Assembly (NCBI RefSeq): GCF_001186125.1
Contig: NW_014040545.1
Location: 213,700 to 234,069 of the forward strand
From: Sphaeroforma arctica JP610
Taxonomy: Eukaryota
Length of the DNA stretch: 20,370 bases
Reading direction: 5' to 3'
Each line of letters starts with the position of its first letter. Position 1 is the first letter of the stretch. The notes under the pieces are model-generated. The model searched no databases. It was not told where the DNA came from and was given only the letters and a program-made list of their open reading frames with translations. Of the stretch, positions 5,705-20,370 are shown piece by piece. Made by a program: the position numbers and the translations under genes.

Positions 5705-7227
5705 TAGCACTTTAGATCAAGAAAATGCATCGAGTAAAAGCGCTAGGTTTGATGTCAGAATGCACTAAGATACAGATTCCAATATGGTAATTTAATGTAG
5801 ACAAATCGTTGGGATCAACAAGTCAAAATTACTATCATTACTTTTAAACCGTACTTTATCAAAAACGATGAAAGCTATACTAAACCGTGTTGATCCGCAT
5901 TTCGTTATTGTTCGCAAACACAGTCAGTTCTCAATCAAAATTTTATCGATATAACGTACTGCCAGTATATAGAATTCAAAGCAGCGTCGCATAGCACTTT
6001 TGTAATTAATGTCGGTTCATTCTATACAATAGCATATACATCTGCAAGGTACGAATACTCGAATAGTACTCGAAATAATACACAGCGAAATGGGCATGTA
6101 AGCTGCGGTACATTGCCTTCATTTGAACTTTGCAAGGTGTAAATGCTGCTGTGTAGAAGACAAAGTGATTAGATTTGCGCAGTACAAGATTGCATATCAA
6201 ATTACTTCCAGTTACTATTTTCAGCTGTATAACCAGATTGCTGGTGTGGAGCACTTTAAAGTGGGTTTGTGCAGTACAACCTTTCTGTTGGTACATAACA
6301 TTGCGTCACATTGGGATAATGGCATTTTCCTCTGTACAACTGACATGCTGATGTCGGTGATTAGAACATTTCTTCTCGGAAAGCGACTTCGCTATTCATC
6401 ACATTATATGTACCACATATTTGGTCATTTCGAGGTGAACATAAATCTGTTACAGACAATGCAATATCTGAACCGAAAGGAAGCGGTTATATTTCCTGGA
6501 ATAAGGAAAACAATAAAGAGACCTTCGGTTAAGAACTTTGGTTTGACCTGCAGGCTAGATAGATCTTGTTCTTGCACGGGGCAATGTGTTGAGAATATTC
6601 TTATTCAGGGGTGGTATTGATCACTTCTATCCAGGAACAAATGACTGTCGCACGACAGTATTGTTAAACTTTCAATACCTATTGTCTTTTGAGGAGTAGT
6701 TAAAGATCGAAAAATACCTCTTATTGAACGTACGGGCAGTGCAGGTAGATAGATACACCCCCCCCATCCAAATAGAGTATTTTGTATTATATAAGCTATG
6801 ACTGTCTACTTCGAGTCTGCATGTTTCTAGCCCAAAATTTGGAATAGTATGCCGGTAAGTTTGTTTACTGTCGTAGTGGGCATATTATTTTGATTTTGAT
6901 CGATTCGCCAAAAGATCCAAAGATGACATTGTTCTGGAAATCATTGTATTTCCAAATTTTATAATCCTAATAATATCGTTTCCGAACAAAAAGGGATACT
7001 TGGGATATCTTGAATACAAGAGCGGGATATACTAATGTTGTCGTACACTGGTCAATACAAAAATAGGGTATTTTCAAGCTTGTACCTCAGTAGTCCCAGT
7101 ATTTAAAGACGACATTCAACCTTCTTACTGTGTGGTGCACCGATAGTTTGCCTTTGTGTCTACATAAATGTATTAGTAAGTGTATACTGATATTGAGAGC
7201 AATGTAACGTTTGTCTTAGTTTAAACA

Positions 7228-7712
7228 AACAGCTGGGGCCAGTGGAAAGACAAAGTACCTTTTTCGTTATCTCAACTGTGCGCATCACATGCTGGGAACG
7301 ACAAACTTGCATATGTAGCATTGCTTTCATACTGCCACTGATGGATATGTATGCATATGCTGATATCTTGAAATACAAAACTCTTGTCTAAATCTGGTGT
7401 CTTTATCTTGATAAATAGCTGGGGTCTAGAAACAACAAAGTACCTCTTTCGTAATCTCAACCGCGTCCATCGATGGTGAGGTAAGCCAAACTTGCATATG
7501 TAGCATTGCTTACTTGCTGTCGTCGATGGATATATATGCCTATACTGATATTTAGAGAAGAATTCTCAAGATCACCAGTTAGGGTCAGTAACGACAAGGT
7601 ACGACATTCGTAATCTCAACCGCATCGATGGCGTGATGGTATGCTAGGCATGCCAAACTTATAATTGTTACAAATGCTGCCTACTTATTGTCAGATGGAT
7701 GCAAATATCTAT
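7228..7712. repeat. Three degenerate tandem copies of a ~160-190 bp unit
   Basis: Recurring blocks acaaagtacc...ttcgt(a/t)atctcaac, caaacttgcatatgtagcattgctt and gatggata, starting near 7230, 7417 and 7577. Confidence 0.75.
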
Positions 7713-8029
7713 GCTTTTCACAATGTTGTTTAAATCTAGCAAACAACTAGCGAAGAGTACGAAAAATAAAATGTGAAGAAGAAATGAGGTGGTACTAATA
7801 CCGGTGCTGATTGAAAGTCGAATTTCTAAATTATACGCCACACACACTCGCCTCCAGTCAGATGGATGCACATATCTATTCTTTTCACAATGTTGTTTAA
7901 ATCTAGCAAACAACCAGCGAAGAGTACGAAAAATAAAAATGTGAAGAAGAAATGAGGTGGTACAAATACCGGTGCTGATTGAAAGTCGAATTTCTAAATT
8001 TTACGCCACACACACTCGCCTCCAGTCAG
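7690..8029. repeat. Near-perfect tandem duplication (167/168-bp unit)
   Basis: 7690-7856 vs 7857-8024 differ by a few substitutions and a 1-nt indel. GTCAG occurs at all three boundaries. Confidence 0.95.
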
Positions 8030-9397: not shown

Positions 9398-10815
9398 CTA
9401 TCGTATCCTTACCGCTGAAACGAGTGCGGTCGTACAGACAGTATGGGGATGTAAAATATCAAATGACAGTACAGACAGCTCACTAACCCTGGCGAACACG
9501 ATTCTCCTTGCGAACTCCCCACTGTAGCAATTTCTTTCTGCGATACTGAAAATTGCGCTACGCCAAGCAGGTACAAACCGCGCACCAATATGCTGAGCCA
9601 CCAGCTCCGGATCTCTCTCCTGCAAGGACTCCGTACGCTGATGCTGATGGGTATGCGTGAGTGCCACCCACCGATGCCAATACGTGTTGACACCATTCTG
9701 CCAGGAAGCTGCTTCGGCACTGGTGCTAAAAGCACGAACTATCCCCTGCCGCTCCTGGTCACCCGCGTCCTTGAACGGGCTCTCATACATCAGCCAGTTG
9801 GTGTACACCGTGCCTGATAGGCAACGATGTGCTTTTCCCCGCTCTGGCTCAACAATGGGTATGCGATAGGCTCTCATGTCAGTAATGTGGACACTATATA
9901 ACTTGCCACTAACCCTCATGCGCACGTTATGGTACACCGGCGGATCTAATGCGACCTCATCCACCGGACCTACGCAATCTGCCTGGGATTTGTGCGGGGT
10001 TCTCGCGGGACGGAACATAACTACCCGTCCCATATTGAACACGGGCACGTCAACTCGCCACTTATTAGCAGCCCGTGCCTGTGCCAACTGGGCTTTATCG
10101 CCCATATCCCATGCCTTCTCGTCCAAATCTGTTCGCCCAGATCGGTCCGCAACAATCCACCAGCTCCGCATCAGCGAGATGAGAAAACACCCGACCATTT
10201 GTGGCCAGAGTATACGGCGCCATGCCTGTAGTAGACGACCAAGTCGAGTTGTATGCCGAGATGAAATCGGCTACCGCATCCGGCCAGGAGGCTTCCCGCC
10301 CTTTGGGCAAAAACCGTGACAACCATCAACTAGCCCATTGCCCTGGTGGCGGCCTTTCTGGACCGGATGAACCCGGATATTGCGCTCTGAACACCAGGAC
10401 GTGAACTGTTCTCATTAATGATGAGTTGTCTGGGCCAACCCCATGGTGTAATTTGCTGTTCAACAAACCGCTTTGCTTCCTCATACGTATGTTCATGACG
10501 CCTCATCGGACGGCCCACCGCCATGCGAGACATTCGACATACACCTAACAAAATGAAATTATACCCATCCGGACTCGGCGCATGGTATTATTAGTCCAAG
10601 TGCCACTACACTCCAAACGCCTTCGCACGAGGCGGTTGACACAGCAACCCTTGCCGTAAACCCACCGAAGCACCACGGCGAGCGATACATACTGTGCACG
10701 TGTCAACAATATCCGCTAACAAGCCTTTCGGGAAAATCCACCCCAACTTTTCTTGGAACAGGCCTCGGAGTCTCTCCGGACGTGCACACATGTATCGATA
10801 ATGTATCAATCAGAC
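9398..10815 (-). pseudogene. Degenerate Gypsy integrase (Zn finger, core, GPY/F-like, chromodomain-like tail)
   Basis: Frameshifted pieces: H...DIVDTCTVC; FGV.ALGL; YNFILLGVCRMSRMAVGRPM; FVEQQITPWGWPRQLIINE; AYNSTWSSTTGMAPYTL; FNMGRVVM..VGPV..VHITDMRAY. Catalytic Asp residues appear lost. Confidence 0.8.
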
Positions 10816-10864
10816 CGCACTTAGCACGGTGCGTGGCTGTACTCGAACCCCACGCTACCAGGTC

Positions 10865-11902
10865 TCAACTTAACAAGCTCGTCCAAAACTCCTGGCAACA
10901 AACGTAGAGGCGGCCGTTTTGGACGAGGCACCTCGACCCGTTTGAACAAAACCGACACTGCTGGTCTATCATCCTCCACCCTGTCCGAAACCGTAAACGC
11001 CGATTGATCTGTGGTTCATACCTCAACCCAGTGTGAGACAACCGTTCTACATCCTTGGAATCCATAGAAGCGTCAGCGACCGGCTCGTCGTGACGCTGCT
11101 GAAACAGCTGGAATTGCTGTAAAGCCATCAATAGTTGCTCGGACCACTCCTGAGCATCCACGAAAGCCTCTGGCACTTCAACCCCATCATCCATGCCACC
11201 TGGTACTAACTCCTCTGCCTCGCGCTGTGCCATCCGCTGCTGCCAACACTGGTCTGACAGGCGTTCTTTCGATACACCGAGTGGATCTCCCAGACCATCC
11301 GACCCCTCTTCAGGTACCATCCCCGAAGAGTCCGTCCCCAAACCACGTCCCTGGGACATGCTGTCCTCGACAGCCACGTCACCGCATGCAGGGCTCACTG
11401 CTTCCTCAGACAGCAACCATGGAATGCCCTCGACGACAGGCTCCATGTTGGCCTCGGTATGGCTGGACCCCTTGTACCAACAACTATCGTCACGCAACAG
11501 ATTACCCCTGAGGGCCGGCCCTGTCCTGGCCGTCGTATCATGTTGTCCAGATTGCACCGCGCCTAAGCCACTGTCGACCGCAGAACCTGGCCCAGAACAA
11601 ACCAGAGTACCCTCGGGCGGGACACTGTCCACCAAACCCTGAGACACATGCCCCCCCAACGTGGTTTCCCCCGGCCCCGATAGAGAACTACCCAATATAC
11701 AAGGTTCCACACTGTCAGCACTTACCTGAGACCGGTCGGCATCCACTATCACCGGGGACTCCTCGACAACTAGCTCCAGACCCATATCCGCCGGCTGCAT
11801 CAACTCTCCTTCACCGTCATCCCCAGATTCTTCCCGCGGTTTGGCATCCGTCGGCTCCCGACCGGCCATAATGGGGGCAAAACTCTCGGCCGTCGACTCC
11901 AT
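10865..11902 (-). other. 345-aa acidic low-complexity ORF, pol spacer between MTase relic and integrase
   Basis: Uninterrupted D/E/G/S-rich frame on the same strand and in the position between MTase relic and integrase Zn finger. Confidence 0.55.
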
Positions 11903-12009
11903 ACGACGCTGTTACTCATTCTCCTGGCTCGCTCGAAGATGCTGACGCAAGCAGTCACCATCAGTGGAATCCGCCTCCGACGCAGCCGACGCCCGAGCCT
12001 GTGCCCGGG

Positions 12010-12325
12010 TGATTACCGCCAGACATGGTAACGTCGGCCCCATCAAATTCCGGGCCTCATACGGCTTGGACGCCACCCCAAATCGTCTCCAAAACGCCCG
12101 CGGCAAATATTGGAGCGGCACATGGCAATCGCTAGTAAGCAGACCGATGAGAGAACATCCCCATAACGGCGGACCCAGGGGTTGGCCATTTCCCCCCCCA
12201 AAAAAAACGGGTCGTGTTGTGGCGGAACTATGATTGGTGCATCAGCCAGCAGCGCACAAAACCGTCCATCTCCAGTCTAGGCCACCGCCCCTTAGCCCTT
12301 GCCACCCAACGCGGGTTCATGCGTT
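12010..12325 (-). pseudogene. Relic Dam-like N6-adenine methyltransferase domain in the old element
   Basis: NPRWVARAKGRWPRLEMDGF aligns without gaps to NPRWFELAQKILGPHTIDMF of the young element. After frameshifts, HDPFF...NPWV/PPLW corresponds to GDAF...NAWANPPW. Located just after RNase H. Confidence 0.65.
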
Positions 12326-12499
12326 GGACCTTCCTCTGGCGAGTAAGCCGTACGACCCCCGCTACAGGCAACCCCTCGAAAACGATATCCTGGCATAGGC
12401 AAAGCATCCGCAGGCTCAGGCAACTCCAACGGCCAACCAATCGTGACCCGACGCTCCACTGGTTGCAGCGCTCGATCAACAACTTCCGGCCCCAACCGG

Positions 12500-13531
12500 G
12501 AAGGGCAGGTGCCATAGCCAGATGTTCCTCTAACAGTTTTTTTCGCTAAATCCTTACCCTTCTTCTTGCGCTCCGTTTTCGTCTTCCAGCGATGTAACTG
12601 CTCGGTTAGCGGGTCCCCTTCCCGCTCCAAATACTCCACCAGTTTATCCTACGCCTGGCCCCACGCTACCTTTGCCCTGGCATACGCGTGAGACGGATCC
12701 TTCTTGGCCCGCTTCTGACGAGCCATCTCAGCCGCCCAGCCGCAATATCTTTCCCCATCTGTAGAACGACCGCAGGCGCCCTCTGCACCAACACTTCAAC
12801 CCCTACAGCGTACTCACTGATATCAGGGTAGCCATGGATTTCCTCCTGCGGCTCCGGACTGTACAGATATATGCCATTAGTAACTAGCCACATGCACCGA
12901 TCATACACAATGACACACTCGTAATCCATATTAAACTTGACACCATCCTTCGTCTGATTCGTGAGGGGCACAAGAGTACCACTCAGCCCAGGGGTAAAGC
13001 AACTCCACCTAGCCATCATACATATAATGGTGAGTGGCTCGTCCTTATTCTTCGGCAAGCCCAGGCTCACGATGCCCTGCATTCGCTCATCCGTAATAGT
13101 GACGAATCCGTCGTACCAAAGGTGGCCATAGAACAGCCTTGGAATGTGGTCCCCGACTCAATCGCTGCTCGAACCTTATGCCAGAGCGACTTCCAGTGCC
13201 ATAGGTCAGCCTCGTACTCTCTCAGCGTCAACCTCTCGGCCTCGCCAGTCCCCCCAGCCGATAGGACATCCGTCATCCGCGGCAACTCTCGACGAACACT
13301 GGGTATCCCTTCCTCCTCCTGAAGAACACCACTACTCCCAGAATCACCAAAACTACCTGTGATAGAACGCTGCGCTGAATTTCCCATATCCGGCCGGCCA
13401 CCTGACGATGCCCTCAACTGATCCTCCATCTCCTTATTGGTGCTCGTCGTAAAACCTCATCGACAAAACACGTAAAGCCTTGCACAGCACGGACCTAAAA
13501 TTATGCTCGCTCCGCTGGGTATACTGTGCTG
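12500..13531 (-). pseudogene. RT C-terminal half, connection and RNase H relic of the old element
   Basis: PAQYTQR, FVDEV (YxDD-like), LVILGVVV, LPKNKDE...FTPGLSGTLVPLTNQTKDGVKFNMDYEC...YSPEP...PDISEYAVGVEVLVQ (DAS-like), QLHRW. Many frameshifts. Confidence 0.8.
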
Positions 13532-14441
13532 TGTAAAAGTCGGTCTCCTCTAGGCTGACTATACGATATCAAGACGTTTACGTTAAAAAGAAAATACGTT
13601 AAAACGTTAAAATGCAAAATGTTAACAATAAGTTTAGCTTCAGCCCTTGGTAGTGAGCAAAAGATTAGGGGATTTTAGACTGAGACTATTGTCTATATGC
13701 TCCGCTCTAATCACTCACTACTTCGGTCTAGATTTATTTATGTTTTAGTTGCTAAGACTAGATATCATTTCATTGGACGCATATTTTGCATTTCACGCCT
13801 CGAAACAATTACCTACTCAAAATAACCAATAAAATATCGCTAAGTCCAACCCAAGAAAATTAAAAAATTAAAATCAAAACATCAAGCAGGCGCAGTATAC
13901 ATCTGCACCTAAACCCCATCACTTGGTACCTAGCTCTCCATCCCATTTAAGGCATAGACGGCACATCTAGTTGGCTGACTAGGAGGAATCAAAACCAGGT
14001 TGTCCTAGATTCTAACAACTCTGATCCTGTCCTTTTCTCAGTGGATTATCTTGCTCTGAGATAATTATCGAATTATACCATAGGTTTGTGCCAACAACCA
14101 ATTCATGCCTGAGACCCTCTCTCATGGTACTCCCATTAATTAGAGATTCCCAAAGTGTCATTTCCAGGTGTCAGATTTGTATCATTCCTATGTTAAGTAC
14201 AATTCTAATTTCAGTGGGAAAAAAAACCAATCTATATTTGGAAACCCGCCTAATTGTCCACAGTAGAGTCTCATACTCTACTGAGTACTATCACATGTTC
14301 AGAATCTTAAATATCTCAATTCTTGTTCATGTCCAATGCGCTAAACGTATTCCAGTACTATAAGAATAACCGTTAATGCGTTAGTACGTTTATAAAATAC
14401 GTTAACTGTGCAACTACTATTTGGAACCCGCTATTTTTACA
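13532..14441 (-). mobile_element. Solo LTR (910 bp) with 4-bp target-site duplication GCTG
   Basis: gctg|TGTAAAA...TTTTACA|gctg (TSD 13528-13531 and 14442-14445). Removing it restores RT ...LSGVPAQYTQR. Shares blocks with the LTR at 15179-15935, from which the orientation is inferred. Confidence 0.92.
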
Positions 14442-15100
14442 GCTGGAACCCCGGACAACTCGAATCCCGCGCCAACACGCTCGTAAACCTGACCGTCGCT
14501 GGCAACAAACTTCGTATTATACCGGTCACGCTCATCTATCGTGAATTGGTTAAATCCATTGGCGTTGTCCGTGATGGTAGTCTGGTGAGCGTTACATATA
14601 TGTGTCCGCAACTATTCTTCGCTGGGCATGTTGGAGTGATCCGGGATGGACCATTTCCGGGTGATGCCCCGTTCTAGTTCCTTGGCCAGCTTCCTGCTCT
14701 CCACTCCCTTCCGAAGCGGATCCCTATACTTGTAAATGCTCCTAGACGGGATGGCATCAGGCCTCGTAGGAATCCGGAAACCAGGACCCTTGGAGAACGC
14801 GTGGTCTTGATCTTTCCGATATGCACACTTGCGCCAGTGTGCTTTCATTCTCTTCAACTCTTGTTCACTGACCCCAATGCCCTTGGCCATAGCGTCCGGG
14901 TGCAAGAAAAAAAATCGTTGCCCTTGATGTCCTCCTCCTGGAAGGGCATAGTTTCCATATTGAATATGGTCTCCGCGTCGATCGTACTCGACGCTAAACG
15001 AAAAACAGGAGGATCGCTGGTGCGGTCCCAATCTGTAATCGATCTTGCTGGGATAAGAAACTAAGAATCGCCTCTTTCCCAAGCAGAATGGTGCCATGAC
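14442..15100 (-). pseudogene. Protease tail and RT N-terminal half of the old element
   Basis: FLV...DYRLG; FRIPTRPDAIP...Y...LAKELERGITR; TDNANGFNQFTIDERDRYNTKFVASDGQVYERVGAGFELSGVPA. In-frame stop at 14612-14614. Confidence 0.82.
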
Positions 15101-15178
15101 ATCAAATAATATAGTATCAGTAGTAAACGGACACATGTGGTTAGATATAGTAATATAAACATCTAGAATCACCACCGC

Positions 15179-15935
15179 TGTAAGATTCGGTCTATTAAGG
15201 CGATATTAACGCCGTAGAGTAAATAAACGCGTGGGTAAATTCTAAGTATCGTGAAAATATCAAAGTAAATAAATGAAATGAAACTTTTAGTAAAGTTAGG
15301 TATGCCTCGTGAAAGCAGCAATACTTTGAGGGATTGTGAGGCTGAGACATTGCCTATATAAAATCCTCTCAGTACTGTTTCCGCCGAAGGGATTTTATTT
15401 AGTGTTTCGTTGTCGCTCTATTAAAAACTACGATATTTTTCATCGGGGCGAATCCGAGAGACTCATAAAATCCTATCTTTAGAAGATTTTTTTTTAACTC
15501 TTGATGTCCTTAGTTATTGTCTTAACCAATAACTTGCCACTTATCAAGAATTACCGACTTAGCCTTCATCAGACTGGCACATCTGGTTGGCTGATCGGAG
15601 GATCAACTAGGTAACGTTAATAGTCCCTAGAAACCTATATTCGGTTGAGCCATCTCGCTACCGAAGTGTTCAGATATAAATAAAGTTGGAAAGTAAATAT
15701 AGTTATGTTAATAGAACTAGACCAACTCTTATGTTTGGTATTTTTCTGAGGCCTTTTAATGGCCTTGTCCAAATATCTTATATGTAAAATGGAATAGGTA
15801 TTAATTAATAAAATCATTAAAAACCATTTAGGAAAATTTAAGTTCCTTGTACTATTAAGAGTACGTTTATAATTTACGTACTGCTTAAGAGTGCGTTTAT
15901 AACATAGAGTCTAATGTGGAGGCCCGGCTATTACA
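15179..15935 (-). repeat. 3' LTR (757 bp) of the young element
   Basis: TGTAA...TTACA termini, adjacent to the PPT, AT-rich, with block homology to the solo LTR (e.g. ggcacatct(a/g)gttggctga, tgtaa..(g/t)tcggtct). Confidence 0.85.
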
Positions 15936-15937
15936 CA

Positions 15938-15947
15938 GCCCCCACCC
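15938..15947 (-). promoter_or_regulatory. Polypurine tract (plus-strand primer)
   Basis: Minus strand GGGTGGGGGC-TG directly precedes the LTR start TGTAATAG. Confidence 0.75.
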
Positions 15948-16074
15948 AGCTTTGAGACCCGTGAGAAGCAAGTTGCTCACTCAAGCTGAGTATGGGTCAA
16001 AAAGCGAGAAAGGAAGAACTGGTCGAAAACATTAAGTAGTATAACATATAGTTATTGTTTCTCAGGCGGAGAAG

Positions 16075-17553
16075 TTAAGCGTTCTCGGTTACCCTGTGAG
16101 TTTTGGGCTTAGGTCCAGTAGGTCCGTGGTGGCCGACTGGACGTTTCTTACGCTTCAGTGTCTTACGTACATATGAAGGATGAGCATTAAAGCTCGGGAT
16201 AAATGCTGTGGGCGGGTAAGTTTTAACTTCCGTGCCTTCAAACGATGGAAACATGCTATCTTTTTCAGCTTGTGAATTATGCAGGCATTTTCGCCATTTT
16301 CGATTAAAGGCTTTTAAATAGTCTTAATTATCGAAAGCATCTGAAGTCAACTCAGCTATTGTACCGTTTATAAAGCGTGTGCGATAGTATGTATAGCCTC
16401 CATTATCCGTTCTCCATATATTGTCTTTAAATTCAGAACTATCAAGAGGGGCATTAGAGTCATGTCTTCTTGCGAGTATAATCTCTGTAGTCGGAATACG
16501 ACTTGTGCCTATATTAGGCGCACTAGAACCATCGGGGTTGTTTACCGCGTACGTTCCACTTTTAGTGTCTGCTACAGAGATTATATATGGACCTATCCAT
16601 TTAGATGTTAATACAGTAGCATCGGAATTACGTTGACTGATGTTAACTCTGTCACCAACCTGATACTCTGCTATCTTCTTGGTAGTGTTCCAACGCTTTT
16701 GCCTTTTTAATAAGGCTATATTGCGTATTTCTCGCAAGCAAGGATATACAACGTTATAAATACGTTGTACCTTCTCTAAACATGGTAACTCATGGTGATC
16801 AGGCTCGCCCTTGTTAAAGGGGATTTGTAACTCACTATATCTGCCACGAAAATAGTGAGCGGGTGTAGTTCCTGTAACCGGATCAGCACACTCGTTCATC
16901 TGTGTTTGTACCCACTTAAGGTGGTACGGCCATTCATCTGCATCATCCGTTAATGCAGTACGCAAGAAAAACTTAAGTTTTCTATGGCGCGTTTCATTCG
17001 CGCCTTGTGTTTGCGGCTTATATGGCACACCTCTCTTATGGCATATGCCTGATACGAGTACTAGCGATTCCATTACGTCATCGCAGAACTCACTACCGTT
17101 ATCAGTGCATATAATACCTGGCCACCTGTGGTCAGCAAAGACTTGGCAACATAATTATGCCACGGTCTGCGTATTCTTATCCTTTAATGGATAAAGCAAG
17201 TTAAACCGTGACGCCACATCAAAGAAGTGGCATACGTAACGGTCGCCTGTGTGCTCGGACGTGGGCAGGTCAACCAGATCAATGATGACCCTGCGCCATA
17301 GAACATCTTCAGTCACACTCTTAAGCGGTGCGAACCCATAGCGCTTGATCTGATTGAGATCACAGTCTGTACATGACTGATATACTCTGTCAACTAAAGT
17401 TGCCAGCTTAGGGTGCACGATCCCATTTCGCTTAGCATCTTTAAGTGCGTCTACTACGTTCTGGTGCTTCAGCTCATGGTTTTGCGTCAGCCAAGCAAGA
17501 ATGTTTTTATCATTCTGCTCTTCCAGAAAAAAGTTAGGGTGTTGAGAATCCAC
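16075..17553 (-). pseudogene. DDE integrase with HHCC Zn finger, GPY/F motif and chromodomain-like/basic tail
   Basis: HELKH...CTDC; VIIDLVD; CTDNGSEF with E 36 residues on (D-35-E, GANETRH); KWIGPY. One frame with in-frame TAA at 17155 and 16324, ending at TAA 16075. Confidence 0.93.
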
Positions 17554-17929
17554 TTATGTGGTCTCTAAGTCTGTAGTGTTTCCAGACTCCTGTCCTGCTT
17601 TCGCATGAGTGTCATAAGTGCGCTCATGTGCGTTAGATACACCTGACTTATGTGTATACGCTTCAGGATCATCTTTCATTAATCCCTTTAAAAATAGGGT
17701 TTGAAAGACATCGGGTTTGGACTTTATGTTATTAAACAGAGTCCTAGCTAGAGACTGACGCTTCTTAACAGTAATTTCACTAGTAGATTGTATTTCTTGT
17801 GCACAGACTTCAAGTGATGTGTTGCCTTTGAACTGCTTCACGTTCAGTTGGGTAAAAAGTGGAATCTCTGATTCTTTGACCTTGTTAAGGAAGGTCTCAG
17901 AAGGGGCCCATTTGGATGTTCCAATGGGA

Positions 17930-18478
17930 CATATACGACATATTATAGTCTCCAGGGCGTCTTCTGGACGGCTCGGGTACCCTTATATAGGAAAGTATCT
18001 ACTTCCCTATCTAAATATATTGGCTCGCATTGTATCATGCTTATTAATTTATTGAGCCATGGATCTTTACTCCGTATTGGGTAACACAACGTGATGGTAG
18101 CTTTATGTATATGAACATAATTTAATAGCTGGGCAATTAACTACCATGGTGGGTTAGCATCTAAATATATTGGCTCGCATTGTATCATGCTTATTAATTT
18201 ATTGAGCCATGGATCTTTACTCCGTAATGGGCAACACAACGTGATGGTAGCTTTATGTATATGAACATAATTTAATAGCTGGGCAATTAAATGCCATGGT
18301 GGGTTAGCCCACGCATTATGTTTAGAGAGGTCTATTTGAAAGGCGTCTCCCAAAGTATGATTTAAAGTCCTGTAATGCGATAGTTGTGCATTATGATGTG
18401 CAGCAAACATATCTATGGTATGTGGCCCTAATATCTTTTGAGCCAGTTCAAACCACCTGGGATTACATTTCCAGTCAG
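17930..18478 (-). pseudogene. Dam-like DNA N6-adenine methyltransferase domain within pol
   Basis: In frame with RNase H: DWKCNPRWF...GPHTIDMFAAHHNAQLSHY...GDAF...WANPPW..I...L......ATITLCCP....PW, the motif set of DIRS/phage Dam-type MTases. Disrupted by a 150-bp duplication carrying a TAG and a frameshift near 17950. Confidence 0.9.
18009..18308. repeat. 150-bp tandem duplication in the MTase
   Basis: 18009-18158 vs 18159-18308, 4 substitutions seen. Confidence 0.95.
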
Positions 18479-18519
18479 TGGCTAGTAACTCACGTACGGA
18501 TTTATTAAAGTCCGGTACG

Positions 18520-20370
18520 AAGCGTGATAACATATCCGGTAAATGGTTATGTATTCCTGGCAGATGTTTTATATCAAAATGAAACGTTGATATTGTATCA
18601 TGCCAGCGACTCAGTAATTGTGAGTCGGGTTTCATCTCTTTCATATATTGAAGAGATTTCTGATCACGCATCAGCGTAAATGCTGTTCCGTATAAGTAAT
18701 CTCGGAAGTGTGTTAGAGCTGCCACTACGGCTAATAGCTCTTGTTTAACAGTTGGGTAATTCAACTGTGAAGCATTCATTGCTCAACTAAAGAATTGCAT
18801 ATATCTAGGTTTGTTATCTATAACCCGATATACTACTCCTCCTAAGGCTAAGTCGGAGGCGTCCGTTGCTATTTCAAACGGCACGCCGTCGACTGGTCCT
18901 TGTACAACATGGGCTTGCTGGACTGCGTGTTTGAGCGCTTTAAATGCGTCATCACACTCTTTAGTCCACAAGTCTCCTAGCTTGCCATTATGATATCTTA
19001 TGTGTCCAAAAGGTTTAAGGTAATCAGCCAAGTGTGGTACTCCATCTGAAAAGAAGTTTACAAACCCACACATGCTGTTAACATCTCTTTCTGTAGTTGG
19101 TGTTCGCCAATCTAACAGGTGTTCTACCTTACCGGGGTCGATTTTAATACCTTCCCCAGATATACGGTAGCCTAAGAGCTGTATTTCGCTCATGGCGAAG
19201 TGGCATTTCATCTCGTTAATCTTGAAGTTTTGCTCGTTGAGTTTCTTAAGGACTCGTCTGACTAATGCGGTGTGTTCGCCCATAGTTTTGGAAAAGATGA
19301 CTATGTCATCTATGTAGACTTGCACGTTAGGCATGTCTGCAAACATTTCCTCCATTACTTGTTGGAAGAATGCTGGTAAAGAGTGTAACCCAAAAGGTTT
19401 CTACCTTACCGGGGTCGATTTTAATACCTTCCCCAGATATACGGTAGCCTAAGAGCTGTATTTCGCTCATGGCGAAGTGGCATTTCATCTCGTTAATCTT
19501 GAAGTTTTGCTCGTTGAGTCTCTTAAGGACTCGTCTGACTAATGCTGTGTGTTCGCCCATAGTTTTGGAAAAGATGACTATGTCATCTATGTAGACTTGC
19601 ACGTTAGGCATGTCTGCAAACATTTCCTCCATTACTTGTTGGAAGAATGCTGGTAAAGAGTGTAACCCGAAAGGTGCACCTCTGAGCCTGTATTGTTTAC
19701 CTTTCCACGTAAAACTAAAGTATTTACGATGTGGTTCATATACCTGCATTTGATGGTATCCTTGTGTAAGGTCTATAGTTATAAATACTGTAGCACTTTC
19801 CATCCTTCGCAGTAGCTCGTTAATAAGTGAAAGCTATGAGTCGGCAATAATTTATTTATTGGACTCATATCTAAACATACTCTGACTTCTTAAACGATCC
19901 GTCAGAGTTATGTTGGTCTACGGCTAGCAGTGCCAAGCTAACTGGCGTCTGTTGATAGTTAGTTTCTATCACTCCATCTGCTAGCCGTTTCTCAACTTGT
20001 ACTTTTACCACAGCCTCGTGTCTCCAGGATACATAGTTCCTTGAGGGACACTTTAACTGAGTAAAGTCCACCTCGGTTAAGTCAAGGCTGACATACCGGT
20101 CGTTAAAACGGAATTTTGCCCAATCTGTGATCTATATCTTCTTATTAACTAGAATCAGATCCATGATTTTGTTCGCAAAGTCAGGTATTAATGCCTTGAC
20201 TGTGTCTGACGGGGGCTTATATGGGTTCAGACAGTTATCGTCTGATTGATCCTTTAATGGATCTATGTTATTTGGTAGACCAGTTACGGTTATACCCAGA
20301 GTGAGTAAATCGCTCATTCCGACTATAATGTCGTACTTCTGTGACATCTTAACTTTACGGCTTGGGTAGT
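18520..20370 (-). pseudogene. Protease tail, reverse transcriptase and RNase H of the young element
   Basis: Motifs DIIVG, RVCLD, IDLTQGYHQ, APFGL, VYIDD, LLGYRIS, ATDAS, ELLAVV, DMLSR. Stops at 20132 and 18783, frameshifts near 19885, 19830 and 19398. Confidence 0.95.
19122..19675. repeat. 277-bp tandem duplication in RT
   Basis: 19122-19398 vs 19399-19675, 3 substitutions seen. Duplicates YIDD and shifts the frame. Confidence 0.95.

What the first reader, a model, noticed from the sequence alone, without database searches (positions are those of the whole stretch)
16075..18900. LTR retrotransposon with a DNA adenine methyltransferase fused between RNase H and a DDE integrase
Seen: RNase H (DMLSR, ~18530) reads in frame into a domain with the SAM-binding motif IDMFA (~18413), GDAF and the catalytic NPPW (18294-18305). 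A spacer follows, then HHCC/D-35-E integrase, PPT and a TG...CA LTR. Established: a Dam-like MTase after RNase H is typical of DIRS tyrosine-recombinase retroelements, while canonical Ty3/Gypsy pol goes RH directly to IN. Inference: this is an integrase-type LTR lineage packaging its own amino-MTase, perhaps to mark new cDNA or insertions with 6mA (a permissive mark in several unicellular eukaryotes and early fungi) to evade silencing or license expression. I cannot verify whether such elements are already catalogued.
Basis: partly seen in the sequence, partly recalled or inferred. Interest (0 to 1): 0.92.

Follow-up and report, generated by a model that had tools for sequence, protein, structure and literature searches.

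The report
Gypsy retrotransposon carrying adenine methyltransferase domain
This is a broken copy of a repeated gypsy-type jumping gene that carries an adenine-methyltransferase-like domain between its RNase H and integrase; the design is real and conserved in intact relatives, but a 2026 preprint already described such elements, likely this same lineage from single-celled relatives of animals, and what the domain methylates is still untested.

Summary
Observation confirmed. On the minus strand RNase H reads in frame into a Dam/DIRS-type methyltransferase (MT) domain (IDMFA 18416-18402, NPPW 18305-18294), then a spacer, an HHCC/D-35-E integrase and a 757-bp TG...CA LTR (15935-15179). This copy is dead (stops, frameshifts, two tandem duplications), but the family is multi-copy (about 70 different LTR flanks per run) and two relatives about 70% identical hold RT-RH-MT-IN in one open frame. 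The RT is Gypsy-type and sits in a supported clade with Abeoforma whisleri proteins; a Sphaeroforma arctica protein matches the closest relative. The scan noted DAM-LTRs before on other DNA (23 notes). Two small additions: the folded MT matches the RNA enzyme PCIF1 best (Z 9.6; T4 Dam 7.8), favouring single-stranded or RNA:DNA substrates, and the integrase ends in a likely decayed chromodomain that the preprint calls absent. Host, activity and substrate not shown. New member of a known kind; interest 0.3.

The parts
19890..20370 (-). End of protease region, linker and start of RT (runs off the window; one stop, frameshift near 19886)
   Evidence: tblastn of P0001 52-205 at 66% and P0002 102-259 at 64%
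18880..19889 (-). Reverse transcriptase (YIDD 19593-19582) and connection; 277-nt tandem duplication 19122-19675
   Evidence: Pfam RVT_1 E 1.5e-26; repeat D1; Gypsy side of RT trees
18522..18879 (-). Gypsy-type RNase H (TDASD 18866-18852, DMLSR 18536-18522); stop at 18785-18783
   Evidence: Pfam RT_RNaseH and RT_RNaseH_2; motifs
17934..18521 (-). N6-adenine methyltransferase-like domain (IDMFA, GDAF, NPPW 18305-18294); 150-nt tandem duplication 18009-18308 with a stop at 18143-18141; frameshift near 17947
   Evidence: Pfam Dam E 1.7e-5 to 6.4e-5; model pLDDT 89.4; best fold matches PCIF1 Z 9.6 and T4 Dam Z 7.8; 67-70% identical to P0001/P0002
17554..17933 (-). Poorly conserved spacer
   Evidence: 22-29% identity to relatives; no Pfam hit; low-confidence in the model of Abeoforma P0008
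16435..17553 (-). Integrase: HHCC zinc motif, D-D35E core, SH3-like C-terminal part; stop at 17157-17155
   Evidence: Pfam rve E 2.1e-8; model of relative P0008 matches PFV and Ty3 intasomes
16288..16434 (-). Likely decayed chromodomain-like module at the end of integrase; stop at 16326-16324
   Evidence: Transitive profile evidence only: window+P0001+P0002 vs 9 relatives 95.7%, those 9 vs chromodomains 98.0%, direct comparison 0.26%; ESM Atlas Chromo 0.92 for P0001 1252-1330
15939..15953 (-). Polypurine-tract-like G-rich run
   Evidence: Sequence, 3 nt before the LTR
15179..15935 (-). 3' LTR, 757 bp, TGTAA...TTACA
   Evidence: loose ends of 70/70/73 contigs at 15179 and 41/41/42 at 15935 in runs X1/X5/X14 with 35-37% agreement
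9400..15178 (-). Insertion target: older, heavily decayed Gypsy-like pol (RT about 14700-13250, RH about 13130-12800), itself split by a solo LTR at 13532-14441
   Evidence: Weak: P0003 E 3.5e-4, profile hits iE 0.011 and 0.018; low, single-contig cover at 13000-13491 and 14476-14967

Best explanation
This is a dead copy of a multi-copy Ty3/Gypsy LTR retrotransposon whose Pol polyprotein holds RT, RNase H, a Dam/DIRS-type adenine methyltransferase domain and integrase in that order, likely a member of the ichthyosporean DAM-LTR lineage, and in intact copies the domain would likely methylate adenines on the element's own reverse-transcription intermediates. Shown: architecture, multi-copy status, one open frame in relatives, Gypsy-type RT, conservation of the MT as strong as RT and RNase H, amino-methyltransferase fold with NPPW (about 0.9 for this part). 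Inferred: Pol is packaged in the particle, the small MT (no target-recognition domain of its own) sits beside RT/RNase H and marks RNA:DNA hybrid or single-stranded cDNA; after integration the host AMT1 system would maintain 6mA and keep the new copy transcribed (the preprint's model; about 0.5).
For: P0001 (1376 aa) and P0002 (1400 aa), 70% and 68% identical to the RH-MT frame, hold RT-RH-MT-IN in one ORF. Of the best 150 hits of an MT profile plus P0002-P0004, 18 of 153 join MT and integrase in one protein. P0001 vs P0002 identity: MT 69.5%, RT 60.9%, RH 72.1%, integrase core 55.8%, spacer 29.8% of aligned columns. NPPW/NPPF in 14 of those 18 and in 11 of the 12 rows of the window's clade. 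Careful RT tree of 33 rows: Gypsy side vs 15 DIRS-like rows 100/100; 12-row MT-bearing clade with the window 95/98, holding P0005 and P0006, which EukProt names Abeoforma whisleri; S. arctica SARC_08637 (P0111) is 71% identical to P0002 over 155 aa. Window RT scores 155 bits on a profile of 6 distant Gypsy-side RTs and 88 on one of 45 DIRS-like RTs. Best solved fold for P0002 RT-RH is Ty3 (E 6e-63). [quoted passage not shown] The preprint reports more 6mA and more expression on DAM-LTRs than on other LTRs in Abeoforma and Sphaeroforma and no activity on E. coli DNA.
Against: No activity, substrate, 6mA or expression was measured here. Pfam Dam scores of the window, P0001 and P0002 are below the curated cut-off. 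P0002 has CPPW in place of NPPW yet an equally conserved domain. The only published assay is negative, and Iyer et al. call DIRS MT domains likely inactive (PMC4738411 passage). The Foldseek match to PCIF1 is not significant (E 0.28) and Z 9.6 is only modestly above T4 Dam. The AU test did not reject a tree with the window RT beside the 45 DIRS-like rows (p 0.68; constrained tree 16.5 log units better than the quick tree). The MT tree is weak: only the window+P0001+P0002 node is starred, the wider group has 82-84. The host is not established, and the DIRS-like label rests on architecture, not on named references.
Confidence: 0.55

Rival explanations
1. The domain is a catalytically inert SAM- or nucleic-acid-binding module that is kept for a structural role in Pol (RNA packaging, priming, or mimicry of a host enzyme); 6mA on these elements would come from host AMT1 alone because they are transcribed.
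For: Negative E. coli assay; Iyer et al. judge DIRS MTs likely inactive; CPPW in P0002 and other substitutions in 4 of 18 MT+IN proteins; earlier scan notes report lineages with the motif lost (not checked).
Against: NPPW/NPPF is kept in 11 of 12 rows of this clade, whose RTs are far apart (window vs Abeoforma RT about 45%); the acidic SAM-binding motif (IDMFA/IDLFA) is kept too.
Confidence: 0.2
2. The domain is an RNA methyltransferase of the PCIF1 kind: it would put m6A or cap-adjacent m6Am on the element's own genomic RNA, to stabilise it or to route it to packaging.
For: PCIF1 is the top structural match in both searches; 12 of 46 MT relatives hit Pfam PCIF1_WW at E<=0.05 (best 1.7e-7); Iyer et al. 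place DIRS MTs in the PCIF1 clade; no activity on E. coli DNA.
Against: 41 of 46 hit Pfam Dam; PCIF1 needs its helical domain for cap and long-substrate binding (PMC8287941 passages), and no folded equivalent is seen in the spacer of the relative P0008; the published link is with DNA 6mA and AMT1 hosts.
Confidence: 0.15
3. The domain is a classical motif-specific Dam that methylates finished double-stranded cDNA or the integrated copy.
For: T4 Dam (Z 7.8) and E. coli Dam (Z 7.2) are the next fold matches; Pfam Dam hit.
Against: The domain is only about 150 aa; the preprint finds eukaryotic DAMs lack part of the target-recognition region and gave no 6mA in dam- E. coli.
Confidence: 0.08
4. A one-off DIRS fragment inserted into one Gypsy copy, or two elements placed side by side.
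For: In this copy a frameshift and stops separate MT from integrase; the window is a nest of elements; the AU test did not reject the window RT beside DIRS-like rows.
Against: Intact single-ORF relatives; 13 RT-bearing MT+IN proteins in the tree; contigs of the same family bridge RH to MT (X16 record 20) and MT to spacer (X16 record 19, X14 record 12); no tyrosine recombinase hit in the spacer.
Confidence: 0.02

Closest known systems
Ichthyosporean DAM-LTR lineage (Fernandez-Moreno et al., bioRxiv 10.64898/2026.05.21.726589; Pirum gemmata, Abeoforma whisleri, Sphaeroforma arctica)
   Same: Ty3/Gypsy RT, DAM-like domain with Asn-Pro-Pro, DDE integrase, no Pfam-detectable chromodomain; RT clade shared with Abeoforma proteins; S. 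arctica protein 71% identical to the closest relative.
   Different: The preprint says the lineage lacks chromodomains; profile comparison finds a divergent chromodomain-like end in the lineage, most decayed in this subfamily. It treats the domain as prokaryotic-Dam-like and its main text does not mention PCIF1. Whether this very family is in its tables could not be seen (supplement and figures not available).
DIRS1-like tyrosine-recombinase retrotransposons (PMC3266345)
   Same: RT-RH-MT order in pol; the MT profile of this element finds 47 RT-MT proteins without integrase among its best 150 hits.
   Different: DDE integrase instead of tyrosine recombinase, protease in the relatives, TG...CA direct LTR instead of inverted or split repeats, Gypsy-type RT and RNase H.
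PCIF1/CAPAM cap-specific adenosine N6-methyltransferase
   Same: Best structural match of the MT model (6irx, Z 9.6, rmsd 2.4, 114 aligned); NPPF-type motif.
   Different: 14-15% identity; no WW domain; no helical cap-binding domain seen; part of a retrotransposon polyprotein.
KnitGypsy-Dnmt3 and SymbioDIRS-Dnmt3 (PMC5890265)
   Same: A DNA methyltransferase domain built into a retrotransposon Pol.
   Different: Those carry C5-cytosine enzymes, unrelated to this amino-methyltransferase.

Membership tests
Ty3/Gypsy LTR retrotransposon | Order PR-RT-RH-IN in pol with a DDE integrase after RNase H | tested here: met
   Window order; single ORF in P0002 with protease, RT, RH, rve
Ty3/Gypsy LTR retrotransposon | RT groups with Gypsy, not DIRS | tested here: met
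   100/100 split in careful tree, 155 vs 88 bits; Ty3 best PDB hit. Caveat: no curated references; AU test did not reject the alternative placement
Ty3/Gypsy LTR retrotransposon | TG...CA LTR preceded by a polypurine tract | tested here: met
   15935-15179 and G-rich tract
Ty3/Gypsy LTR retrotransposon | Paired 5' LTR, primer-binding site, gag, target-site duplication | not testable with these tools
   Outside the window; no genome held
DAM-LTR retrotransposons | DAM-like domain inside the Pol of a non-DIRS LTR element | tested here: met
DAM-LTR retrotransposons | Conserved Asn-Pro-Pro catalytic triplet | tested here: met
   NPPW in the window and P0001; CPPW in P0002
DAM-LTR retrotransposons | Raised 6mA and transcription of copies; AMT1 in the host | not testable with these tools
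   No methylation data, no genome, no listed RNA holder
Ichthyosporean DAM-LTR lineage | Groups with Abeoforma/Sphaeroforma/Pirum elements by RT | tested here: met
   12-row clade 95/98 with Abeoforma P0005, P0006
Ichthyosporean DAM-LTR lineage | Groups with them by the DAM domain | tested here: inconclusive
   Abeoforma P0005, P0008, P0006 are the nearest rows after P0001/P0002 and the next-best profile hits, but the joining nodes have only 82-84 support
Ichthyosporean DAM-LTR lineage | Host is an ichthyosporean | tested here: inconclusive
   Only indirect: named relatives from Abeoforma and S. arctica; no host gene identified in the window
Ichthyosporean DAM-LTR lineage | Lacks a chromodomain (as described in the preprint) | tested here: inconclusive
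   No Pfam Chromo hit in the window, P0001, P0002 or P0006, as described; but a divergent chromodomain-like module is found by profile comparison
DIRS1-like elements | Tyrosine recombinase, no DDE integrase, inverted or split terminal repeats | tested here: not met
   DDE integrase and TG...CA LTR present
PCIF1/CAPAM family | WW domain plus helical domain plus MT acting on capped RNA | tested here: not met
   Only the MT fold is shared; neighbours in the protein are RNase H and a low-confidence spacer; activity not tested

The most novel reading that the evidence does not exclude
The ichthyosporean DAM-LTR enzyme is a PCIF1-like, single-strand or hybrid-directed adenine methyltransferase that works inside the particle on the element's RNA or nascent cDNA, which would explain the failed E. 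coli assay, and the lineage descends from a chromodomain-bearing ancestor whose chromodomain has decayed step by step, so writer and reader modules were once joined in this lineage too.
Probability: 0.3. Interest if true: 0.65.

Novelty: new member of a known kind. Interest (0 to 1): 0.3.

Why it matters
The function of the DIRS-type methyltransferase domain has been called unknown since at least 2011 (PMC3266345 passage), and the 2026 preprint could not show activity. This copy adds no new class, but its intact natural relatives with NPPW (P0001) and CPPW (P0002) are a ready pair for an assay, and the PCIF1-like fold says which substrates to try (hybrids, ssDNA, capped RNA). A positive result would show a transposon writing a permissive mark on itself. 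The decayed chromodomain would change how the preprint's chromodomain-bearing and chromodomain-less lineages relate.

Tried and rejected
Spacer as a remnant of a DIRS tyrosine-recombinase N-terminus (my first idea from a motif recalled from memory): no Pfam hit, only an unnamed PHROG at E 0.0017, and 22-30% identity between families; dropped. A second MT in the older element at about 12340-12100 (seen by eye): not significant with any profile (iE 1.6 at best). Sequence searches of the PDB with the MT found nothing. The search for related loci found no relative in viral contigs (83 pattern matches, 0 confirmed) or metagenome contigs (306, 0 confirmed), so no DNA of relatives and no dN/dS. Near-length homologue search: 0 of 88 candidates. 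No RNA holder listed; expression and the copy number of the older element were left open. ApT and CpG ratios are unremarkable. The AU test does not ask the right question in an unrooted tree (it only needs the window RT to branch first on the Gypsy side) and showed the quick search was incomplete; the tree was rerun carefully on 33 of 65 rows (30 of 45 DIRS-like rows and the 2 long-branch EN-MT-RT rows left out). Direct profile comparison of the window subfamily's C-terminus with chromodomains failed (0.26%), and the window copy alone scores -3.5 bits. No tRNA in the window. Literature searches; 'DAM-LTR' occurs in one paper of the library.
Full report
Observation. The element lies on the minus strand and runs off the right end of the window. 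One stop-free frame, 18782-18141, holds the second half of RNase H and the first 126 residues of the domain in question; Pfam gives RT_RNaseH (E 7.5e-16) and Dam PF05869 (E 6.4e-5, below the curated cut-off). Downstream come a spacer, an integrase (rve E 2.1e-8 when read with X at stops; HHCC and D-35-E counted), a G-rich tract and a 757-bp TGTAA...TTACA LTR at 15935-15179. The copy is dead: six stops, two frameshifts and tandem duplications of 277 and 150 nt. No genome is held for the window.

Is it a family trait? Contigs of four public runs were laid on 13000-20370. In three runs 70, 70 and 73 contigs leave the LTR at 15179 and 41, 41 and 42 at 15935 into unlike flanks, which fixes the LTR ends and points to dozens of insertions. 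Contigs cover the MT as they cover RT and integrase in all four runs, and single contigs bridge RNase H to MT and MT to spacer; depth here is cover, not copy number. At the stops at 17157 and 17556 nearly all laid sequence differs from this copy, so these lesions are private to it. Two database proteins, P0001 and P0002, 70% and 68% identical to the RH-MT frame, carry RT, RNase H, Dam and integrase in one ORF, P0002 also a protease. Between them the MT is 69.5% identical, against RT 60.9%, RNase H 72.1%, integrase core 55.8% and spacer 29.8%: the domain is held by selection at the protein level. No DNA of relatives was found, so dN/dS was not computed.

Wider relatives. A profile of the MT found 2590 proteins at E<=0.001. 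Among the best 150 plus P0002-P0004, 18 of 153 join MT and integrase, 3 more join a Gypsy-type RNase H and MT, 2 have MT before RT, 47 are RT-MT proteins without integrase (DIRS-like by architecture; 4 checked had no names) and 81 are MT only. NPPW or NPPF stands in 14 of the 18.

Gypsy or DIRS. A quick RT tree of 65 rows put the window on the Gypsy side (100) in a 12-row clade of MT-bearing elements (98). An AU test did not reject a tree with the window RT beside the 45 DIRS-like rows (p 0.68), and the constrained tree scored better than the quick one; that constraint only needs the window to branch first on the Gypsy side, but it showed the quick search was incomplete. A careful tree on 33 of the 65 rows gave the same split at 100/100 and the 12-row clade at 95/98, and the window RT scored 155 bits on a profile of 6 distant Gypsy-side RTs against 88 on the DIRS-like profile. 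Ty3 is the best solved match of P0002. No curated Repbase or GyDB references were available.

Which lineage. P0005, P0006 and P0008, among the next-best MT hits, are EukProt proteins of Abeoforma whisleri; P0005 and P0006 are in the 12-row clade. P0111 is S. arctica JP610 SARC_08637, 71% identical to P0002 over 155 residues and 63% over 30 residues to the window's MT end. The host of the window is not established, but an ichthyosporean is likely. In the MT tree the Abeoforma rows are nearest after P0001/P0002, with weak support (82-84).

What the domain looks like. The model of window 18521-18159 has mean pLDDT 89.4. Foldseek ranks PCIF1/CAPAM first but not significantly (E 0.28, TM 0.61). The wide structural search ranks PCIF1 first (Z 9.6, rmsd 2.4, 114 aligned), then T4 Dam (7.8) and a run of other class I methyltransferases. 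Of 46 MT relatives, 41 hit Pfam Dam and 12 PCIF1_WW at E<=0.05. Iyer et al. place DIRS MTs in the PCIF1 clade and think them likely inactive (PMC4738411, passages). PCIF1 uses a helical domain for cap and substrate binding (PMC8287941, passages) and in vitro prefers ssRNA over RNA/DNA hybrid over ssDNA over dsDNA (PMC9178792, abstract). In a model of Abeoforma P0008 the MT and integrase fold well and the spacer does not; the integrase matches PFV and Ty3 intasomes.

A hidden chromodomain. The last strands of that model prompted a test. The C-termini of 9 relatives match chromodomains of 6 chromodomain-bearing hits at 98.0% (hhalign), the window with P0001 and P0002 matches those 9 at 95.7% (reversed control 0.5%), P0002 and P0001 score 14.6 and 6.8 bits against a best of 2.3 in 300 shuffles, and the ESM Atlas gives Chromo clusters at 0.92 for P0001 1252-1330. 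Against this, the direct comparison fails (0.26%), the window copy alone scores -3.5 bits, the tryptophans typical of the relatives are lost in this subfamily, and Pfam Chromo is weak or absent (best E 0.0011 in 9 relatives). I read it as a likely decayed chromodomain.

How it most likely works. Shown: a Gypsy Pol with a conserved amino-methyltransferase module next to RNase H. Inferred from general retrotransposon biology (own knowledge): Pol is packaged with the RNA and cut by the protease, so the MT is present during reverse transcription. Because it is small, lacks a clear target-recognition part and folds most like an enzyme that prefers single strands and hybrids, it would most likely methylate adenines on the hybrid or single-stranded cDNA; host AMT1 would then keep 6mA on the new insertion and favour its transcription (about 0.5). 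Rivals: inert binding module (0.2), RNA methyltransferase (0.15), classical dsDNA Dam (0.08), one-off chimera (0.02).

What is known. bioRxiv 10.64898/2026.05.21.726589 (whole main text read; figures and supplement not seen, and they may list this family) claims the first DAM domains in non-DIRS LTR elements, defines five lineages, among them an ichthyosporean one in Pirum, Abeoforma and Sphaeroforma without chromodomains, finds more 6mA and expression on these copies, gets no activity in dam- E. coli, and proposes methylation of RNA-DNA intermediates followed by AMT1 upkeep. Its main text does not mention PCIF1. 'DAM-LTR' occurs only in this paper of the library; other searches gave no earlier description. 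Passages of PMC5890265 and PMC3266345 cover Dnmt3-bearing Gypsy elements and the DIRS RT-RH-MT layout; passages of two further preprints were not relevant. The scan's notes hold 23 similar findings on other DNA and none like this sequence; I had found the preprint before reading them.

Verdict. A real feature, correctly read, and a member of a recently described kind. The copy itself is dead. The PCIF1-like fold and the decayed chromodomain are small, testable additions. Interest 0.3.

Noticed in passing
window 13532-14441 (- strand): A second, multi-copy solo LTR of 910 bp (TGTAA...TTACA) with a 4-bp target duplication CAGC, related to the focal LTR (472 of 728 aligned bases; score 261 vs at most 202 in 100 shuffles). 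It may belong to a sister DAM-LTR family.
   Followed up: partly
window 9400-15178 (- strand): Older, GC-rich, heavily decayed Gypsy-like pol into which both LTR insertions landed; about 2.5 kb lie between its RNase H and integrase-like parts, with an MT-like look at 12340-12100 that is not significant.
   Followed up: partly
P0002 residues about 690-697: An intact close relative has CPPW in place of NPPW with an otherwise equally conserved domain.
   Followed up: no
P0020 and P0060: Long proteins (2144 and 2382 aa) with the order exonuclease/endonuclease/phosphatase - Dam-like MT - RT - RNase H - integrase zinc finger, on a long RT branch; a different DAM-element layout.
   Followed up: no
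P0085: A 776-aa protein with dUTPase followed by a Dam-like domain.
   Followed up: no
P0111 (S. arctica SARC_08637): An annotated protein that joins the end of a DAM-LTR MT and spacer to the start of a DIRS-like RT, probably a gene model across nested elements.
   Followed up: no
window 7168-8029: Short arrays of about 160-185-bp units (77-96% alike), no coding hit sought.
   Followed up: no
window 18009-18308 and 19122-19675: Two near-perfect tandem duplications inside pol; a contig of a relative lacks the first (X14 record 12). Copy-specific duplication or assembly artefact could not be told apart.
   Followed up: partly
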